A stretch of DNA of 47,149 nucleotides from Escherichia phage JeanPiccard, in the sequence record MZ501080; one strand, 5' to 3'. The position numbers were made by a program, and so were the translations under genes. Every line of letters begins with the position of its first letter. Within the stretch, counting starts at the first letter, position 1. Shown piece by piece: positions 19,730 through 47,052 of the stretch. A model generated the notes under the pieces. It saw only the letters and a program-made list of their open reading frames with translations, did no database searches and was not told the DNA's origin.

Positions 19730-20662
19730 TTAATACATGTCTGGAAGGTAAGGCAATGGAGTGGATATTGTTACGTCAGGTCTGTTTCCAATCTCATATC
19801 TTACAATCCTTGATCCAGTTCCCGATCGAACATAACCATTACTCATTACGATTCCTTTGTTTCTTAACTCCTTGTAAGCTGGAATTGCCCTGGTGTTAAA
19901 TCCGCATCTTAATATTGGGAAGTAGGATTCGCCAATATACTGATTGCTACCTGATAGGTTTATGAATCCAGAAACAACCAACGGCCTTGTAACGGTTGAT
20001 AAAGTGCAAACACCATTAGAGTTAAATATGTTCAATCCGGGTCCTGGTATTGGCGCAACCATCTGAAAAATAATCAAGTCCATAGTGACACTTCCAGGAG
20101 TGTCTCCAGTATCTTCAGTGTTTATGTTTGTGCATATCAGTTGATTGCTCCCGTTGTATTCAACCGAGACGCCGGAGTTATTCCACTTTCCAAATGGTAT
20201 CCCATAAATTGGCAGCGTGTATGTGTTGGTGAAAGATATCCTCTGAGCAAACTTGCACACCAACAACCTGTCAGTGGTGGTTATCGAAGTAAAATCTGTG
20301 CTATTGGCAACATAAATACCCTGACCAGTAGATGCTCTTAGTACCTCAACAACAGTACCAGAAAATTGAGTTATACGGTCAGAATATCCATTCTCATAGC
20401 CAATCGATATTGTTCCGCTTGATGCTGTTGATGAGAATCCATTTATGTAGTAAACCTCAACGCCCCTATCAAGTTCGAATGAGTAGGCACCATTATTAGG
20501 GATTAGGAACCTTGACGCTCCTTCATTACCCTGGATTGAAAAAGTTTTGCTAAATCCACCACTAGAAACGTTGAAGTTGCCAGCAAAGTTCAAGGCACGC
20601 ATCCCTGCGGTTATTGTCATTGGCTTTCTTCCGTCATTGAGGTCTATATAAATACCTTGAGC
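19730..20662 (-). CDS. hypothetical beta-rich protein co-transcribed with lipoprotein (possible receptor-binding or exclusion partner)
   Basis: 310 aa from ATG 20662 (AAGGAG RBS, TAATG overlap with upstream gene); Gly/Ser/Thr/Asn-rich. Confidence 0.45.
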   Translation of the reverse strand, partial: AQGIYIDLNDGRKPMTITAGMRALNFAGNFNVSSGGFSKTFSIQGNEGASRFLIPNNGAYSFELDRGVEVYYINGFSSTASSGTISIGYENGYSDRITQFSGTVVEVLRASTGQGIYVANSTDFTSITTTDRLLVCKFAQRISFTNTYTLPIYGIPFGKWNNSGVSVEYNGSNQLICTNINTEDTGDTPGSVTMDLIIFQMVAPIPGPGLNIFNSNGVCTLSTVTRPLVVSGFINLSGSNQYIGESYFPILRCGFNTRAIPAYKELRNKGIVMSNGYVRSGTGSRIVRYEIGNRPDVTISTPLPYLPDMY

Positions 20663-20664
20663 CA

Positions 20665-20895
20665 TTAATTCCACTCCTTAGAACCATAATCACGAACGGA
20701 CCCACTGGAGCCTTTAATTCCATCGTAGCGAATATCAATTTCACCAGCCGGAACAATTACGCCGCTTTTCCATTTAGCTACGCACACTCCGTTTGAGGAT
20801 GTAGCGCACCAACCATCTGGGCGAGGACCAGATGAGCAGCCTACCATCATGATTGCTGCTGCGGAGATGATTACTGATTTGATGAAGTTATTCAT
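20665..20895 (-). CDS. lipoprotein, Cor-like superinfection exclusion candidate
   Basis: signal peptide [19 protein letters not shown] followed by Cys (lipobox MVGC); about 76 aa; adjacent to tail genes. Confidence 0.55.
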
Positions 20896-20960: not shown

Positions 20961-20978
20961 TTTAGCAATTCGTGCTAT
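20961..20978 (-). promoter_or_regulatory. dyad motif (minus orientation, copy d) overlapping methyltransferase stop codon
   Basis: TTTAGCAATTCGTGCTAT is the reverse complement of ATAGCACGAATTGCTAAA. Confidence 0.4.
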
Positions 20979-29142: not shown

Positions 29143-29616
29143 TTACTCTTTAGCTTTTCGTGCTGCTTCGTTGGCGGCCTTGATCTTGCGCCATGATCGA
29201 CACTCTGGCTTGGTGGCTAATTCAGCCTCAGTAACAACGCGCAGCATGTGACGTTTTTTGCATCGTAGTGTAAGCGGTTTTCCGTTACCGTCGAATTGCA
29301 GGTCCGGTCGACAGAATGTAGCGCGAAAACCTTCCCCAGTTCGTTTGTAGTAGTTATGCGACAGTTGAGCGCCACGTGCAGAAATCATACCACGCTTAAA
29401 CCATTCTTCCACGGCCTGAGGAGTTACCTTTAGCTGCTTTGCGATATTCGCCTTTGTGCCGAAGAAATCAAGTAGCATCTCAAGCCGCGCACGTAGCCCT
29501 GCCCTTACTTCATCTTTTAAAACGTAGTAGCCTGAAGGTCGTTTGCGCTTCTTTTTGTCTTCAGTGCGGACGGTTCCGTTATTCCCGTTAATGGTTCGCT
29601 TGTCTACTGCATTCAT
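29143..29616 (-). CDS. HTH DNA-binding protein (putative transcriptional regulator)
   Basis: helix-turn-helix-like segment ANIAKQLKVTPQAVEEWFKRG; basic termini. Confidence 0.55.
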   Translation of the reverse strand: MNAVDKRTINGNNGTVRTEDKKKRKRPSGYYVLKDEVRAGLRARLEMLLDFFGTKANIAKQLKVTPQAVEEWFKRGMISARGAQLSHNYYKRTGEGFRATFCRPDLQFDGNGKPLTLRCKKRHMLRVVTEAELATKPECRSWRKIKAANEAARKAKE

Positions 29617-35805: not shown

Positions 35806-36291
35806 ATGAAGCAGAAGCTGCTAATTAGCGCGGCTACGGCTGCGGCAATATACATCGCAGCACCGCTTATTGAGCTCGTTGAGGGTGTGGAGAACGAGAC
35901 TTACATAGACATTGCCGGGGTGAAAACCGTATGCGCAGGTGTCACTGGCCCTGACGTGGTTTGGGGTAAAACATACAGCAACAGTGAATGCCGGAAGCTG
36001 CTGGAGAAACACATTCAAATTCACGCAAAGCATGTTCAGAATGCAGTTACCCACCCAATTGCACCGCAGACAATGGCGGCTTTAATCAGTTTTAGCTACA
36101 ACGTTGGCGGTCATGCCATGAAGAATTCAACGGCAATCCGACTAATCAATCAGGGTAAAGTGGAGCAGGGTTGCAAGGCTCTCGGGATGTGGACAAAGGC
36201 TACCGTTAATGGCAAGAAGGTTGTCGTTAAGGGGTTAGTGAATCGCAGGAATGAGGAGATTAAGTTATGCTTAAGTGGGTTGCAGCGTTAG
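35806..36291 (+). CDS. endolysin, lysozyme-like with N-terminal SAR (signal-anchor-release) domain
   Basis: weakly hydrophobic Ala/Gly-rich N-terminus LLISAATAAAIYIAAPLI followed by lysozyme catalytic region ENETYID...T. Confidence 0.8.
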   Translation: MKQKLLISAATAAAIYIAAPLIELVEGVENETYIDIAGVKTVCAGVTGPDVVWGKTYSNSECRKLLEKHIQIHAKHVQNAVTHPIAPQTMAALISFSYNVGGHAMKNSTAIRLINQGKVEQGCKALGMWTKATVNGKKVVVKGLVNRRNEEIKLCLSGLQR

Positions 36292-36656
36292 TAATGTGCG
36301 TATCTTTATCTGGATGTTCAGCGACTGATGCACTGACCGGATTGATTGGCAGTAAGCCGGAAATTAGTGCGCAGGCTGGTGCAGAGAATAACAAGGTTGG
36401 AGTTGGGTTAACGAATAAGGTTGACTCAAGTAACTCCAGCGAAGCCACTGTGAAAGACTCTAAAGTTGGCTCGCTAGATAGCTCAAGCGGGAAAAAGACT
36501 GCTGACAACTCTATTAAGGCATCTACAATCACCGCGGAAAAGATTGAGATTACCAACAACGAATCATCCGCACTTCCGTGGATTGGAACTGGAGCAATGG
36601 GGTTGCTGGTTCTGATTCTCATGGCATTAATCTTAAGACGTAAAAAAGCCTCCTAA
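36267..36656 (+). CDS. unimolecular spanin (u-spanin, T1 gp11-like)
   Basis: N-terminal lipoprotein signal with lipobox LSGC, Ser/Thr-rich periplasmic region, C-terminal TM GAMGLLVLILMALIL then RRKKAS. Confidence 0.7.
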   Translation: MLKWVAALVMCVSLSGCSATDALTGLIGSKPEISAQAGAENNKVGVGLTNKVDSSNSSEATVKDSKVGSLDSSSGKKTADNSIKASTITAEKIEITNNESSALPWIGTGAMGLLVLILMALILRRKKAS

Positions 36657-41230: not shown

Positions 41231-41779
41231 ATGCAGAAAGTAACACTAGGTGAAGTTATCCGCGAGATGGTTCGTAACGCGATGGCGTCTGATGGTGGTG
41301 AATTCAAAGTTCCGGTTAGCCAGATATTCAAGCTGGTTCGCGGGAAAGAATACCCTGAGATGCGGTATGATGAGGATACCAGTGAGATCCTAAACCTTGC
41401 AGATAGGGCGATGCCGGAACTAAAGAACTCATACATTTATAATACGGTTTCGAGAATGACCGAGCTTCGAGATGCAAACAAGCGAGCGCGCTATAAGTTC
41501 ATCTGGATTGATGAGGATGGCGAGCAGGTAAGCCCTGGTAGCTTCGATGGTGATGGCGCCGATAAATACCTGGTAATATACATTGAGGACGGCGCGCACT
41601 GGACTGGAAGTCGCGAGAAGAAAAAGCAGGAATCGGAGAGGGAGGCAGCAACCATTGAAAGGTTTAAATCTCGATTGCTCAAGCTGTCACCTAGCGTCGC
41701 TGGGCTGGAAGGTGATGAACTTAAGGGTGCTGTTGCAATGATTAATGCTTATCAGGAAATGATTAAGGAAACCAAATAA
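41231..41779 (+). CDS. hypothetical protein
   Basis: 182 aa; ACGAGG RBS; first gene of plus-strand operon leaving control region 2. Confidence 0.5.
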   Translation: MQKVTLGEVIREMVRNAMASDGGEFKVPVSQIFKLVRGKEYPEMRYDEDTSEILNLADRAMPELKNSYIYNTVSRMTELRDANKRARYKFIWIDEDGEQVSPGSFDGDGADKYLVIYIEDGAHWTGSREKKKQESEREAATIERFKSRLLKLSPSVAGLEGDELKGAVAMINAYQEMIKETK

Positions 41780-42306
41780 TGTTTGATTTCAACGAAGAAA
41801 AGCTGACAGATGAGCAGGTCATGAGTATTGCGAAGCAGGATGGGATTCCCCCGCTACGGGTTGCAATCAATGCAAACGGGTATCGTCATGTTCAACACCT
41901 CTGGAGTCATCCTGATGCGTCATCAATCCACAAGGGTGAGGCTGTTGAGGTTCTGCTGACAGCGATAAGGACTGAATCTATAGCTCGCAGGGGAGTTGTT
42001 GGCTTACAGAAGTCTTATGACCTAATTAGGAAGCTAAAGAGGTTTAAAGGTGACAATGACGGGCTAATGGAGAGGATTAAGGACGAAATGATTCCAGAGC
42101 TAGAGAAAGCGAATCTCGTTTGCCTCATTGGAGATAAGATTTATGTCCACCCGGCTATCATTGAGGAGTCCTGGCAACCCAACTTCAAAACTTACGAAGG
42201 TGATCACACTAGTAGACTACCATACCACTTGCGGTACAGTGAGGCGGAGGTGGAAGAGGCTATTGAGTTCTACCGGAAGACTAAATCACTCCTGAATGGC
42301 GAATAG
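41779..42306 (+). CDS. domain-deleted paralog of the P-loop ATPase (N- and C-terminal modules only)
   Basis: MFDFNEEKLTDEQVMSIA..PPLRVAINANGYR and CLIGDKIYVHP match the ends of 37010..38593; no Walker motifs. Confidence 0.55.
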   Translation: MFDFNEEKLTDEQVMSIAKQDGIPPLRVAINANGYRHVQHLWSHPDASSIHKGEAVEVLLTAIRTESIARRGVVGLQKSYDLIRKLKRFKGDNDGLMERIKDEMIPELEKANLVCLIGDKIYVHPAIIEESWQPNFKTYEGDHTSRLPYHLRYSEAEVEEAIEFYRKTKSLLNGE

Positions 42307-42321
42307 CACGAATTGCTAAAC
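42304..42321 (+). promoter_or_regulatory. dyad motif TAGCACGAATTGCTAAAC (family copy p); TAG is the stop codon
   Basis: exact consensus copy. Confidence 0.45.
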
Positions 42322-42376
42322 AATGGATCGGGTAGTCAGCTATGATTACCCTATCAACAACGAAGAGGAAATGAAG

Positions 42377-42586
42377 ATGGAAGCTGTAATTATCGAAGAT
42401 TTCGCAGGTGACAGCACGGAGGTGTCGACTTCAGTATATTACGACGGCATCGTGAGCATTGACATTGACCTGGATAACTTAGGCGATAGATACACGCTCG
42501 CCCACTATACACCAGAGGCGGCCCGCAAATTGGCGGCGGCATTAATCCTGGCGGCGGACGAGGCGGACGAGGTGGAGAAAAAATGA
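42377..42586 (+). CDS. hypothetical acidic protein (start uncertain)
   Basis: GAGGAA RBS before ATG 42377; track ORF starts at 42323. Confidence 0.4.
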   Translation: MEAVIIEDFAGDSTEVSTSVYYDGIVSIDIDLDNLGDRYTLAHYTPEAARKLAAALILAADEADEVEKK

Positions 42587-42846
42587 AACGTTTAATGACA
42601 TGCATGACCATTATTGCGGCAATTATTGCTCTTACTGGTTGCGAGAAAGCACCGGAGGTTCAGATTCAGTCAGGTGAATTCAATGTGGAGCGTCTATTCA
42701 CAGTGGATGGATGTACCGCCTACCGATTCCGAGATAGCGGTAAAGCCGTCTACTACACAAATTGCCATGGCAGTACGCAGAGTGAGTACAAGTCCGGCAA
42801 GGTCACGAAACAAGAAATAGTTCAGACAAATCGCACGAATTGGTAA
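42583..42846 (+). CDS. lipoprotein
   Basis: signal peptide MKRLMTCMTIIAAIIALTG followed by Cys (lipobox LTGC); 87 aa. Confidence 0.55.
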   Translation: MKRLMTCMTIIAAIIALTGCEKAPEVQIQSGEFNVERLFTVDGCTAYRFRDSGKAVYYTNCHGSTQSEYKSGKVTKQEIVQTNRTNW

Positions 42847-43028
42847 AAGGGGATTCATCCTGACTGGTATAATCCAACGCATCAACCAAATGAATGGAAG
42901 TTAAGTGACGATATACGAACATAAATTCAGTAGCAGGGGTATTGATATGCTCCTGCACTATGTAGACGAAAAATACGCAAAGCTAATGCTTAAGACGCAT
43001 GGCGGCACAATAACGAGGATTAACATAA

Positions 43029-43719: not shown

Positions 43720-43911
43720 ATGATTACGATTAACCTATCAGAAGAAATGGCCGCTGACCTTATTGATTCACTAAGCCTGGTTAAAATTCGATATGGAACT
43801 TACCACATGAGCGAATCAGTAAAGGAAGTGGTAAAGCAAGTTAAGCAGCAGGTCGGAGCTACCAAAATCGAATTGCAGAACACCCCATACGATTTTAATA
43901 AAGGTGAATAA
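43720..43911 (+). CDS. hypothetical protein (MITINLS paralog 1)
   Basis: 63 aa; N-terminus MITINLSEEMAADL. Confidence 0.45.
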   Translation: MITINLSEEMAADLIDSLSLVKIRYGTYHMSESVKEVVKQVKQQVGATKIELQNTPYDFNKGE

Positions 43912-43912
43912 G

Positions 43913-44140
43913 ATGATTACAATCAACCTGTCAGACAAGCAGGCGGCAGAACTCAAGTCCATGATGAACTCTTTCATGCCAACGCGCTGCGACGGTCAGC
44001 GTAATGTGGTAGATGAGGTTAGAGACCAAATCAACAATCAGCAATTCGACGTCAGTGACTTCGAGTCATCACGTCAGTACGAGGCGCTTAGCGTTAATGC
44101 TGCATACCTGGCTAACTGGGATAAGGCAACGAAGAAATGA
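43913..44140 (+). CDS. hypothetical protein (MITINLS paralog 2)
   Basis: 75 aa from ATG 43913 (AAAGGTG RBS); N-terminus MITINLSDKQAAEL. Confidence 0.45.
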   Translation: MITINLSDKQAAELKSMMNSFMPTRCDGQRNVVDEVRDQINNQQFDVSDFESSRQYEALSVNAAYLANWDKATKK

Positions 44141-46077: not shown

Positions 46078-46155
46078 GCTCTGCTAGCTCAACAGGACAG
46101 CAGCAACGACCTTCTAAGTCGTAGGTTACTGGTTCGAATCCAGTGCGGAGCGCCA
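46078..46155 (+). tRNA. tRNA-Arg(TCT): tRNA-Arg (anticodon UCU), CCA encoded
   Basis: manual cloverleaf: acceptor GCTCTGC/GCGGAGC (one G-U pair), anticodon stem ACGAC/GTCGT with loop CTTCTAA, T-arm ACTGG-TTCGAAT-CCAGT, discriminator G, then CCA. Confidence 0.7.
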
Positions 46156-46635: not shown

Positions 46636-46660
46636 AGCCCTCGCTTGAGGGCTTTTTTTC
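46636..46660 (+). terminator. rho-independent terminator
   Basis: hairpin AGCCCTCgcttGAGGGCT followed by T7 and conserved CGTCTGTA. Confidence 0.65.
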
Positions 46661-46739
46661 GTCTGTATGTTGACAATAATATATAGGTGCATTAGTATTA
46701 ACTCATCGGGGCGACCCACTAACCAGAAGGAGATTCAAA

Positions 46740-46984: not shown

Positions 46985-47008
46985 AGCCCCTTAATTGGGG
47001 CTTTTTTA
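46985..47008 (+). terminator. rho-independent terminator
   Basis: hairpin AGCCCCttaattGGGGCT followed by T6 and conserved ACGTCTG. Confidence 0.65.
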
Positions 47009-47052
47009 CGTCTGCAGTATGGTATAATCTGACCTCAAGAAAGGAGGATTTA

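What the first reader, a model, noticed from the sequence alone, without database searches (positions are those of the whole stretch)
42583..42846. Second small lipoprotein in the early/accessory region
An 87-aa ORF has a typical lipoprotein signal (MKRLMTCMTIIAAIIALTG then Cys) and a mature part with three more cysteines. It is a second candidate membrane-targeted exclusion or host-modifying factor, distinct from the tail-adjacent lipoprotein.
Basis: partly seen in the sequence, partly recalled or inferred. Interest (0 to 1): 0.45.

Follow-up and report, generated by a model that had tools for sequence, protein, structure and literature searches.

The report
Small phage lipoprotein of unknown function
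The ORF is a real, widely conserved small phage lipoprotein (family DUF4884), probably anchored to the host outer membrane; nobody knows what it does, and it is not the factor that blocks this phage's own receptor.

Summary
The window is the complete genome of Escherichia phage JeanPiccard (Bas02, Drexlerviridae). ORF 42583..42846 (+) is its annotated gene bas02_0065. The lipoprotein signal is real: MKR, a hydrophobic core, lipobox L-T-G-C20, Glu at +2.

The protein belongs to DUF4884 / PHROG 6360, a family of about 80-95-aa lipoproteins with more than 1,300 sequence clusters. Every context I inspected is a phage or prophage, always among early or accessory genes.

It is unrelated to the tail-adjacent lipoprotein, which is a close homologue of Rtp45, the solved LptDE-blocking exclusion protein. 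The DUF4884 gene does not track receptor type. Homologues occur in LptD-, FhuA- and BtuB-targeting phages, and the LptD-targeting sister phage AugustePiccard lacks it. It has no conserved neighbour and no informative fold match.

It sits in a two-gene unit behind a palindrome-bearing promoter motif repeated 13 times in the genome, including upstream of the Rtp45-like gene.

Function is unproven. My best inference is a stand-alone, receptor-independent envelope protection or exclusion factor. It is an ordinary but genuine member of an uncharacterised family; interest is modest.

The parts
42583..42846 (+). Gene bas02_0065: 87-aa DUF4884-family prolipoprotein (stop codon 42844-42846)
   Evidence: ORF list. 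100% identical to P0001, 'hypothetical protein bas02_0065 [Veterinaerplatzvirus Jeanpiccard]', on a contig of 47149 bp. PHROG 6360, E 9.7e-21. 1355 related clusters.
42583..42639 (+). Signal peptide, residues 1-19 (n-region MKR, h-region LMTCMTIIAAIIA, lipobox L17-T18-G19 before C20)
   Evidence: Read from the sequence. A lipobox is present in 129/150 family representatives.
42640..42843 (+). Mature lipoprotein, residues 20-87: lipidated C20, Glu +2 / Lys +3, a short tether, then a six-strand beta-meander with C44 (42712-42714) and C61 (42763-42765)
   Evidence: AlphaFold2 model with the 90-sequence alignment: pLDDT 77.1, above 90 for residues 21-60, strands 26-30, 33-41, 44-51, 54-61, 64-71 and 76-83. 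C20, C44 and C61 are invariant. +2/+3 statistics are.
42574..42577 (+). Shine-Dalgarno GGAG, 5 nt upstream of the ATG; the ATG overlaps the upstream stop (ATGA at 42583-42586)
   Evidence: Read from the sequence.
42371..42586 (+). Upstream gene of the same unit (PHROG 13316, unknown function). The listed start at 42323 lies inside the promoter, so the true start is probably ATG 42371 or 42377
   Evidence: The PHROG match begins at residue 19 of the 87-aa ORF. The promoter -10 is at 42341-42346.
42303..42346 (+). Promoter-like element that would drive the two-gene unit: palindromic motif ATAGCACGAATTGCTAAA (42303-42320), 20-nt spacer, -10 TATGAT (42341-42346)
   Evidence: The motif occurs 13 times in the genome against 0.03 expected. 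The shared downstream architecture is shown, and the promoter scan found the site.
42830..42873 (+). Next copy of the same promoter motif (ATCGCACGAATTGGTAAA, then TGgTATAAT at 42865-42873). It overlaps the last codons of the lipoprotein ORF and is the conserved right-hand junction of the gene cassette
   Evidence: Alignment A4 shows this 45-bp stretch conserved in Rtp, and in AugustePiccard, which lacks the gene.

Best explanation
Supported here by sequence analysis and comparison (not by experiment): bas02_0065 is a genuine gene for a small prolipoprotein of the DUF4884 / PHROG 6360 family. The family occurs in phages and prophages of diderm bacteria. The gene is a stand-alone accessory cassette: it is absent from close sister phages, has no conserved partner gene, and does not track receptor type. 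It sits in a two-gene unit behind a palindrome-bearing promoter motif that also precedes the Rtp45-like exclusion gene.

Inferred from established lipoprotein biology: the precursor is exported by Sec, lipidated on C20 by Lgt, cleaved by signal peptidase II and N-acylated by Lnt. [quoted passage not shown] A roughly 60-residue beta-sheet domain then faces the periplasm. It would be stabilised by a C44-C61 disulfide; most relatives carry a second C71-C75 disulfide.

Inferred function, not shown: during lytic growth it binds a broadly conserved periplasmic or outer-membrane component, or an incoming phage part. This would protect the infected cell at the envelope level, as receptor-independent superinfection exclusion or protection from lysis from without. 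It would not block JeanPiccard's own receptor LptD.
For: Real gene and lipoprotein:
- ORF, SD and lipobox are present.
- C20 is invariant in 90 relatives.
- A lipobox is present in 129/150 representatives, with Asp at +2 in only 5 of 129. Lys at +3 predominates.

Family:
- PHROG 6360, E 1e-20.
- All 90 relatives hit Pfam DUF4884.
- 1355 clusters at E<=1e-3.

Phage-borne, in early or accessory regions:
- rtp3, the third gene from the left end of phage Rtp.
- An Erwinia prophage, between DNA methylases and the integrase.
- A Pseudomonas prophage, between exonuclease/SSB and the integrase.
- A Cupriavidus prophage, next to NinB.
- Large phage-like contigs and phages MyoSmar, Jeremy and X1.
- None in 5,426 E. 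coli genomes by DNA search, and none in plasmids.

Accessory and receptor-independent:
- Present in LptD, FhuA and BtuB phages.
- Absent from the whole genomes of AugustePiccard (LptD) and JulesPiccard despite syntenic flanks.
- About 118 records carry it, against 942 records with a related TerL.
- No neighbour family recurs in more than 6 of 59 non-redundant groups of loci.

Own-receptor exclusion is already provided: the RBP matches 9RPT_C and the exclusion protein matches 9RPS_D.

Shared promoter motif with the Rtp45-like gene.

Disulfides: C44 and C61 are register partners of a predicted beta-hairpin. C71 and C75 are present together in 81/90 relatives and lost together in 9/90.
Against: - No experiment, paper or annotated homologue gives a function.
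- Localisation by the +2 rule is an E. coli rule applied from knowledge, not a measurement.
- The invariant polar residues (R48, D51, K73) could be purely structural in such a small domain.
- In temperate phages the gene lies in operons expected to be silent in lysogens. That fits a lytic-cycle role but does not single out exclusion.
- dN/dS against Rtp rtp3 is 0.57 on only 19 substitutions, which is uninformative.
- The shared promoter motif proves neither timing nor function.
Confidence: 0.4

Rival explanations
1. A Cor/Llp/Rtp45-type receptor blocker aimed at a different outer-membrane protein. It would bind the periplasmic face of some other phage receptor (for example a TonB-dependent transporter, TolC or OmpA) and exclude heterologous competitor phages or colicins.
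For: - It has the same general make-up as Llp, Cor and Rtp45: a small phage-encoded outer-membrane lipoprotein with disulfide(s).
- It shares the promoter motif of the Rtp45-like gene.
- Rtp45 binds LptD partly by beta-strand pairing, which a small beta-sheet could also do.
Against: - The mature domain is unrelated to Cor and to the Rtp45 homologue; only the signal peptide aligns.
- No solved exclusion protein appears among the fold matches.
- The gene is not next to any RBP gene.
- The core motif is conserved at 40-55% identity in phages of Escherichia, Serratia, Pseudomonas, Xanthomonas and Cupriavidus, whereas known blockers are specific for one receptor.
Confidence: 0.15
2. A modulator of host envelope physiology that benefits phage production rather than excluding phages. 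Examples: an inhibitor of a periplasmic peptidoglycan hydrolase or protease, a brake on an envelope stress response, interference with Lol/Bam/Lpt/Tol-Pal, or immunity against periplasm-acting bacterial toxins.
For: - Conservation across phages of very different hosts, with no conserved phage partner, points to a universal host component.
- An SPFH/Band_7 membrane-scaffold gene lies within 5 kb in 4 of 59 groups of loci.
Against: - The domain, about 60 residues, is too small for a lipid-binding barrel on its own.
- No known lysozyme-inhibitor fold appears among the matches.
- The SPFH association is seen in a small minority only.
Confidence: 0.2
3. A lysis accessory factor: an outer-membrane lipoprotein that helps or times outer-membrane disruption, in the manner of an o-spanin or a spanin regulator.
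For: - o-spanins and u-spanins are small outer-membrane lipoproteins.
- The gene would be expressed during lytic growth in both virulent and temperate carriers.
Against: - The phage has a complete lysis cassette elsewhere: endolysin 35806..36291 (Phage_lysozyme, E 3e-34) and a u-spanin-type ORF 36267..36656 with a lipobox and a C-terminal transmembrane segment. The sister phages carry the same cassette annotated as holin, endolysin and u-spanin.
- This ORF is about 6 kb from that cassette.
- It has no C-terminal transmembrane segment.
- It is not nested in or next to an i-spanin gene.
- It is absent from sister phages that lyse normally.
Confidence: 0.07
4. A dispensable passenger with no measurable role in E. 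coli K-12 infection. It would be a mobile cassette kept by recombination at conserved promoter junctions, and useful only in particular hosts or environments.
For: - Presence and absence vary among close relatives, with conserved promoter sequence at the junction.
- The JeanPiccard/Rtp clade has lost the second cysteine pair that 81/90 relatives keep.
- dN/dS is 0.57 against Rtp.
Against: - More than 1,300 clusters share an invariant lipid Cys and core motif. This shows long-term purifying selection on the family.
- The ORF is intact, with a good SD and translational coupling.
Confidence: 0.13

Closest known systems
Pfam DUF4884 (PF16225) / PHROG 6360
   Same: This is the family it belongs to by sequence. 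PHROG 6360 matches at E 9.7e-21. All 90 relatives hit DUF4884, and UniRef already names this protein a 'DUF4884 domain-containing protein'. Members share a length of about 80-95 aa, an N-terminal lipobox and the core motif F.VE.LFT.DGCTVYRF.D.G...YFTNC.G.
   Different: The window protein itself scores 20.8 bits, below Pfam's gathering score of 30. Its clade has lost the CGKxC cysteine pair. Neither family has a known function, so membership explains nothing mechanistically.
Rtp45 (PDB 9RPS), T5 Llp (PDB 8A60) and T1/phi80 Cor: receptor-blocking superinfection-exclusion lipoproteins
   Same: These are also small phage-encoded outer-membrane lipoproteins facing the periplasm and made during lytic infection (PMC12685063, PMC9586334). 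In this genome the Rtp45 homologue and this gene share the same promoter motif.
   Different: - The mature domain is unrelated; only the signal peptide aligns.
- No fold match.
- Not adjacent to the RBP gene.
- Does not co-vary with receptor.
- Conserved across phages of many host genera rather than tied to one receptor.
Receptor-independent envelope exclusion proteins: T4 Sp (spackle) and Imm, and Streptococcus phage TP-J34 Ltp (from my own knowledge)
   Same: These are the functional analogy I favour: small secreted or lipid-anchored phage proteins that act after adsorption, on the tail lysozyme or on DNA entry, whatever the receptor. Ltp is itself a lipoprotein.
   Different: No sequence or fold relationship was detected to any solved structure. 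Sp and Ltp are helical proteins as I recall, whereas this one is all-beta. The analogy is conceptual and untested.
Spanins (u-spanin of T1-like phages, Rz1-type o-spanins) and lambda Bor
   Same: Small phage-encoded outer-membrane lipoproteins.
   Different: The phage's u-spanin is a separate gene in the lysis cassette (36267..36656). This ORF lacks a C-terminal transmembrane segment and any lysis-cassette context. Bor-type serum-resistance morons are carried by temperate phages and expressed in lysogens, which does not fit a virulent phage.

Membership tests
Bacterial lipoprotein (signal peptidase II substrate) | Positively charged n-region, hydrophobic h-region and lipobox [LVI][ASTVI][GAS]C, with the Cys at about residue 15-35 | tested here: met
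   MKR, then LMTCMTIIAAIIA, then L17-T18-G19-C20.
Bacterial lipoprotein (signal peptidase II substrate) | The lipobox Cys is conserved among homologues | tested here: met
   C20 is invariant in 90 relatives. A lipobox is present in 129/150 representatives, and most exceptions look like mis-called starts with an internal lipobox.
Bacterial lipoprotein (signal peptidase II substrate) | Actual lipidation, globomycin-sensitive cleavage and outer-membrane localisation | not testable with these tools
   Outer-membrane sorting is inferred from Glu (not Asp) at +2 by the E. coli Lol-avoidance rule (knowledge). Asp at +2 occurs in only 5/129 relatives.
Pfam DUF4884 (PF16225) | Score at or above the curated gathering score (30 bits) | tested here: inconclusive
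   The window protein scores 20.8 bits, E 3.2e-4. All 90 relatives match at E<=0.01, best 9.5e-11. The precomputed Pfam assignment and the UniRef name are both DUF4884.
PHROG 6360 | Significant match to the family profile over most of the protein | tested here: met
   E 9.7e-21, residues 5-87.
Cor / Llp / Rtp45-type receptor-blocking exclusion lipoproteins | Homology or fold similarity of the mature domain to a known member | tested here: not met
Cor / Llp / Rtp45-type receptor-blocking exclusion lipoproteins | Gene located beside the receptor-binding protein gene, downstream of the J-like tail tip gene | tested here: not met
   The RBP is at 19730..20674 (-) and its Rtp45-like partner at 20665..20895 (-). 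This ORF is at 42583, about 22 kb away.
Cor / Llp / Rtp45-type receptor-blocking exclusion lipoproteins | Presence and sequence type co-vary with the terminal receptor | tested here: not met
   Homologues of 57-59% identity occur in FhuA phages (PeterMerian, JakobBernoulli) and a BtuB phage (KarlJaspers). The LptD phage AugustePiccard has none.
Cor / Llp / Rtp45-type receptor-blocking exclusion lipoproteins | Binds the receptor and abolishes adsorption | not testable with these tools
   Needs expression and adsorption assays.
Spanins (o-spanin / u-spanin) | Encoded in the lysis cassette; a u-spanin has a C-terminal transmembrane segment, and an o-spanin is nested in or adjacent to an i-spanin gene | tested here: not met
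   The lysis cassette is at about 35.8-36.7 kb and has its own u-spanin-type ORF. This ORF ends in a polar tail (...VQTNRTNW) and has unrelated neighbours.
Periplasmic or membrane-bound lysozyme inhibitors (MliC/PliC, Ivy, PliG, PliI) | Fold similarity to a solved inhibitor | tested here: not met
Known anti-phage defence proteins (PADLOC) | Match to a defence-system profile | tested here: not met
   No family at E<=0.1.

The most novel reading that the evidence does not exclude
DUF4884 lipoproteins are a widespread exclusion or protection module that is independent of receptor and of host genus. A tiny disulfide-stapled beta-sheet is tethered to the inner face of the outer membrane. It binds a universally conserved periplasmic element, such as the peptidoglycan layer, a conserved trans-envelope machine like TonB, Tol or Lpt, or the tail-tip or tape-measure channel of incoming phages. 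In this way it shields the infected cell from many unrelated phages or periplasm-acting toxins. That would be a Gram-negative counterpart of Ltp or Sp.
Probability: 0.2. Interest if true: 0.65.

Novelty: new member of a known kind. Interest (0 to 1): 0.3.

Why it matters
If the family does act at the envelope independently of receptor, it would add a broadly distributed type of phage-encoded protection alongside the receptor-specific Llp, Cor and Rtp45 proteins. That would matter for phage competition, the design of phage cocktails and the reading of host-range data. The gene sits in a BASEL collection phage of E. coli K-12, and natural minus-gene sister phages exist (AugustePiccard, JulesPiccard), so it can be tested directly. 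As things stand it is a correctly spotted but ordinary member of an uncharacterised family that is already annotated (DUF4884).

Tried and rejected
- Sequence families: Pfam, NCBIfam, PHROGs and PADLOC give only DUF4884 / PHROG 6360, both of unknown function.
- PDB by sequence with the family profile: no hit, even at E 10.
A 90-sequence alignment raised it to 77.1, with the core above 90.
- Homology to Cor and to the Rtp45 homologue: only the signal peptides align. Rejected.
- Spanin idea: rejected on position and architecture.
- Conserved partner gene: ORFs of 98 loci were clustered. No family recurs in more than 6 of 59 non-redundant groups, and those that recur reflect Drexlerviridae synteny. 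SPFH/Band_7 lies nearby in only 4/59 groups.
- Domain fusions: the longer representatives keep an internal lipobox and look like mis-called starts.
- E. coli chromosomes by DNA and plasmids by protein: no copies.
- Literature: searches on DUF4884, phage lipoproteins, exclusion and Drexlerviridae transcriptomes gave nothing on function or timing. The Rtp genome paper (PMC1367250) is not held.
- dN/dS against Rtp: too few substitutions to interpret.
- Promoter and terminator consensus scan: not enriched over shuffles. The informative signal was the repeated palindromic motif.

Full report
**Identity of the window and of the ORF**

The 87-aa product of 42583..42846 (+) is 100% identical to 'hypothetical protein bas02_0065 [Veterinaerplatzvirus Jeanpiccard]'. 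That protein lies on a contig of exactly 47,149 bp. The window is therefore the complete genome of Escherichia phage JeanPiccard (Bas02), a T1-like siphovirus of the Drexlerviridae from the BASEL collection. Its terminal receptor is LptD (PMC8594841).

- an ATG start;
- a GGAG Shine-Dalgarno 5 nt upstream;
- a start codon that overlaps the stop of the upstream ORF (ATGA).

**The observation**

The N-terminus is a textbook lipoprotein signal: MKR, a hydrophobic stretch, then lipobox L17-T18-G19-C20.

I applied a PROSITE-like lipobox rule to every possible start of all six-frame ORFs of at least 40 aa. It found only five places in the genome. Three are conserved lipoprotein genes:
- this one;
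- a 76-aa ORF at 20665..20895 (-);
- the u-spanin-type ORF at 36267..36656.

One detail in the finding is wrong. The cysteines are at positions 7, 20, 44 and 61. C7 is in the signal peptide, so the mature part has two cysteines besides the lipid Cys, not three.

**The family**

- PHROGs places the protein in PHROG 6360 (E 1e-20, unknown function).
- Pfam gives DUF4884 at 20.8 bits, below the gathering score of 30.
- The precomputed assignment and the UniRef name are DUF4884, and all 90 relatives I aligned hit DUF4884.
- A profile search of 1.84 billion cluster representatives found 1,355 clusters at E<=1e-3 and 329 at E<=1e-10. Nearly all listed hits are 80-95 aa.
- 129 of the best 150 have a lipobox in the first 40 residues. 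Most of the others keep one internally behind what look like mis-called starts.

The consensus of the mature part is F.VE.LFT.DGCTVYRF.D.G...YFTNC.G.T....CGK.C. Invariant in 90 relatives are C20, F39, C44, R48, F49, D51, Y57, C61, G72 and K73.

Position +2 after the lipid Cys is S, Q, E, T, A or G, and rarely D. Position +3 is nearly always K. By the E. coli Lol-avoidance rule (established knowledge), this predicts outer-membrane sorting.

**Structure**

With the 90-sequence alignment, AlphaFold2 gives pLDDT 77.1, and above 90 for residues 21-60. The model is a signal-peptide helix followed by a six-strand antiparallel beta-meander.

C44 and C61 sit at the two ends of the hairpin formed by strands 44-51 and 54-61. 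They are therefore cross-strand partners, which fits a disulfide; this is an inference from the strand register.

The second pair, C71/C75 (CGKxC), is present together in 81/90 relatives and lost together in 9/90. The nine are the JeanPiccard/Rtp clade and its closest relatives. No sequence has only one of the two.

Nothing informative came from fold or sequence searches:
- the family profile has no PDB sequence hit at E 10;
- Foldseek on PDB gives at best E 0.47;
- BFVD returns only unannotated phage lipoproteins of the same kind.

**Relation to the tail-adjacent lipoprotein**

The 76-aa ORF at 20665..20895 (-) matches PDB 9RPS chain D at E 2e-42. That chain is Rtp45, the superinfection-exclusion lipoprotein shown by cryo-EM to bind LptDE and prevent RBP binding (PMC12685063). 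The adjacent 314-aa ORF matches the Oekolampad RBP, 9RPT chain C, at E 1.6e-40.

JeanPiccard thus has a complete cognate RBP-plus-exclusion module for LptD. The DUF4884 protein shows no similarity to the Rtp45 homologue. Profile comparisons with that protein and with JulesPiccard Cor align only the signal peptide.

The lysis cassette lies elsewhere: a Phage_lysozyme endolysin at 35806..36291 and a u-spanin-type ORF at 36267..36656. The ORF is therefore not a spanin.

**Distribution and context**

In the phage collection, 118 records encode a relative. Most are Drexlerviridae: Rtp 85%, SU57 88.5%, and many Tempevirinae at about 57-59%. Others are Serratia myoviruses, Pantoea, Erwinia, Pseudomonas and Xanthomonas phages. 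By comparison, 942 records carry a TerL related to JeanPiccard's. The gene is therefore present in a minority.

BASEL phages with homologues use different receptors:

| Phage | Terminal receptor |
|---|---|
| JeanPiccard | LptD |
| PeterMerian | FhuA |
| JakobBernoulli | FhuA |
| KarlJaspers | BtuB |

The sister phages AugustePiccard (LptD) and JulesPiccard (which carries Cor) keep the flanking genes. An HMM search of six-frame translations of their whole genomes finds no family member.

The DNA alignment shows the right-hand junction is a conserved 45-bp stretch shared by all three phages.

Elsewhere the gene sits in:
- an Erwinia rhapontici prophage, between two DNA methylases and the integrase;
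- a Pseudomonas faucium prophage, between a RecE-like exonuclease/SSB and the integrase;
- a Cupriavidus necator prophage, next to NinB;
- large phage-like contigs of 84-351 kb;
- blocks of small unknown genes in MyoSmar, Jeremy and X1.

No copy was found in 5,426 complete E. coli genomes by DNA search, or in plasmids by protein search.

I clustered the ORFs of 98 loci, which form 59 groups at 80% identity of the lipoprotein. No neighbour family is present in more than 6 groups. An SPFH/Band_7 gene lies within 5 kb in 4 groups. The gene is a stand-alone accessory cassette of phages of diderm bacteria.

**Regulation**

A repeat search turned up the motif ATAGCACGAATTGCTAAA, which contains the palindrome TAGCA-N5-TGCTA. 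It occurs 13 times in the genome with at most 3 mismatches, against 0.03 expected. In 12 of the 13 copies a TATAgT/TATAAT-like -10 follows 19-22 nt later, and then a conserved CATCGAAAC...GAGAGG leader.

This places the palindrome centre about 42 nt upstream of a putative transcription start (my estimate). Such a position fits either a class-II-type activator site or an operator over a weak -35.

Three copies bear on this gene:
- 42303-42320 (with -10 at 42341-42346) precedes the PHROG 13316 gene and the lipoprotein gene, which would make them a two-gene unit.
- 42830-42847 overlaps the lipoprotein's last codons and precedes the next unit.
- 20961-20978 (-) lies directly upstream of the Rtp45-like gene.

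The two lipoprotein genes therefore share a promoter class. Timing itself is not known, because I found no Drexlerviridae transcriptome. From memory, the Rtp genome paper reported ten such inverted repeats and attributed them to the regulator Rtp52. The paper is not held, so this is a lead only. The likely homologue here (29143..29616, -) has a weak P22_Cro match.

**What it most likely does**

Supported here by sequence analysis and comparison (not by experiment): it is a real, conserved, phage-borne lipoprotein gene; it is accessory, stand-alone and independent of receptor type; and it shares a promoter motif with a known exclusion gene.

Inferred and unproven: the beta domain binds a broadly conserved envelope component or an incoming phage part. 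It would protect the infected cell during lytic growth, as receptor-independent exclusion or protection from lysis from without. I put this at about 0.4.

Rivals:

| Rival | Confidence |
|---|---|
| Modulator of host envelope physiology, or immunity to periplasmic toxins | 0.2 |
| Blocker of a heterologous receptor | 0.15 |
| Dispensable passenger | 0.13 |
| Lysis accessory factor | 0.07 |

The broad conservation of polar residues across phages of Escherichia, Serratia, Pseudomonas, Xanthomonas and Cupriavidus favours a universal target over a single outer-membrane protein. These residues could, however, be structural in so small a domain.

**Verdict**

The cysteine count was off by one, and the exclusion role remains a hypothesis.

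The gene is already annotated as a DUF4884 protein. It is an ordinary member of a large uncharacterised phage family, so interest is modest (0.3). It is readily testable in the BASEL system, where natural minus-gene sister phages exist.

Noticed in passing
window 13231, 20961(-), 21709(-), 28097, 32130, 32456, 38650(-), 39433(-), 42303, 42830, 43647, 44280, 45209: Thirteen copies of the motif ATAGCACGAATTGCTAAA (palindrome TAGCA-N5-TGCTA), against 0.03 expected. Twelve are followed 19-22 nt later by a -10-like hexamer and a conserved CATCGAAAC..GAGAGG leader. This looks like a phage-wide regulon covering the small accessory genes and the RBP/exclusion module. The palindrome centre sits about 42 nt before the putative transcription start, which fits either an activator site or an operator. 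The copies also mark the junctions where gene cassettes differ between sister phages.
   Followed up: partly
window 42323..42586 (+): The mechanical start of the upstream ORF (ATG 42323) lies inside the promoter-like element, whose -10 is at 42341-42346. The PHROG 13316 match begins at residue 19. The real start is probably ATG 42371 or 42377, behind GAGGA.
   Followed up: partly
window 19730..20895 (-): A complete LptD host-recognition module: an RBP similar to the Oekolampad RBP (PDB 9RPT_C, E 1.6e-40) and, overlapping it, a 76-aa lipoprotein that matches Rtp45 (PDB 9RPS_D) at E 2e-42 over its full length.
   Followed up: yes
window 36267..36656 (+): A u-spanin-type ORF: lipobox LSGC at the N-terminus and a C-terminal transmembrane segment. 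It overlaps the end of the endolysin gene (35806..36291). It is the third lipobox protein of the genome.
   Followed up: partly
alignment A3 (relatives of window 42583..42846), residues 71 and 75: 81 of 90 relatives have a second cysteine pair (CGKxC). The JeanPiccard/Rtp clade and its closest relatives (9 of 90) lost both cysteines together (SGKVT). No sequence keeps only one, which suggests the two form a disulfide with each other.
   Followed up: yes
L007 5070..5999; L031 2245..3042; L045 3252..4079; L109 24..368: An SPFH/Band_7 membrane-scaffold gene lies next to or within 5 kb of the DUF4884 gene in 4 of 59 non-redundant groups of phage loci, including Xanthomonas phage X1. This may be a weak functional link or a coincidence.
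   Followed up: partly
window 43720..43911 and 43904..44140 (+): Two adjacent, overlapping paralogous small genes of the DUF7180 family (E 1.8e-7 and 2.5e-22). Both begin M(I/NKM)ITINLS.
   Followed up: no
window 46078..46155 (+); 46636..46663 and 46985..47012 (+): A tRNA-Arg (anticodon TCT) gene sits near the right end. It is followed by two near-identical terminator-like hairpins, AGCCC...GGGCT plus a T-run, 349 bp apart.
   Followed up: no
window 41779..42306 (+): The 175-aa PHROG 7327 protein also matches the C-terminal end of a PHROG annotated as DNA helicase (phrog_2373, E 2.7e-19, profile positions 440-514 of 515). In Rtp only its first 19 codons survive, as the tiny ORF rtp2 just before the lipoprotein gene.
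   Followed up: no
phage collection hits (e.g. MG065636.1, MG065685.1): Seven records labelled 'Campylobacter phage' with host C. jejuni carry the gene at the same identity as E. coli Hanrivervirus-type phages. They also share the T1-like flanks. They look like T1-like coliphages rather than Campylobacter phages.
   Followed up: no
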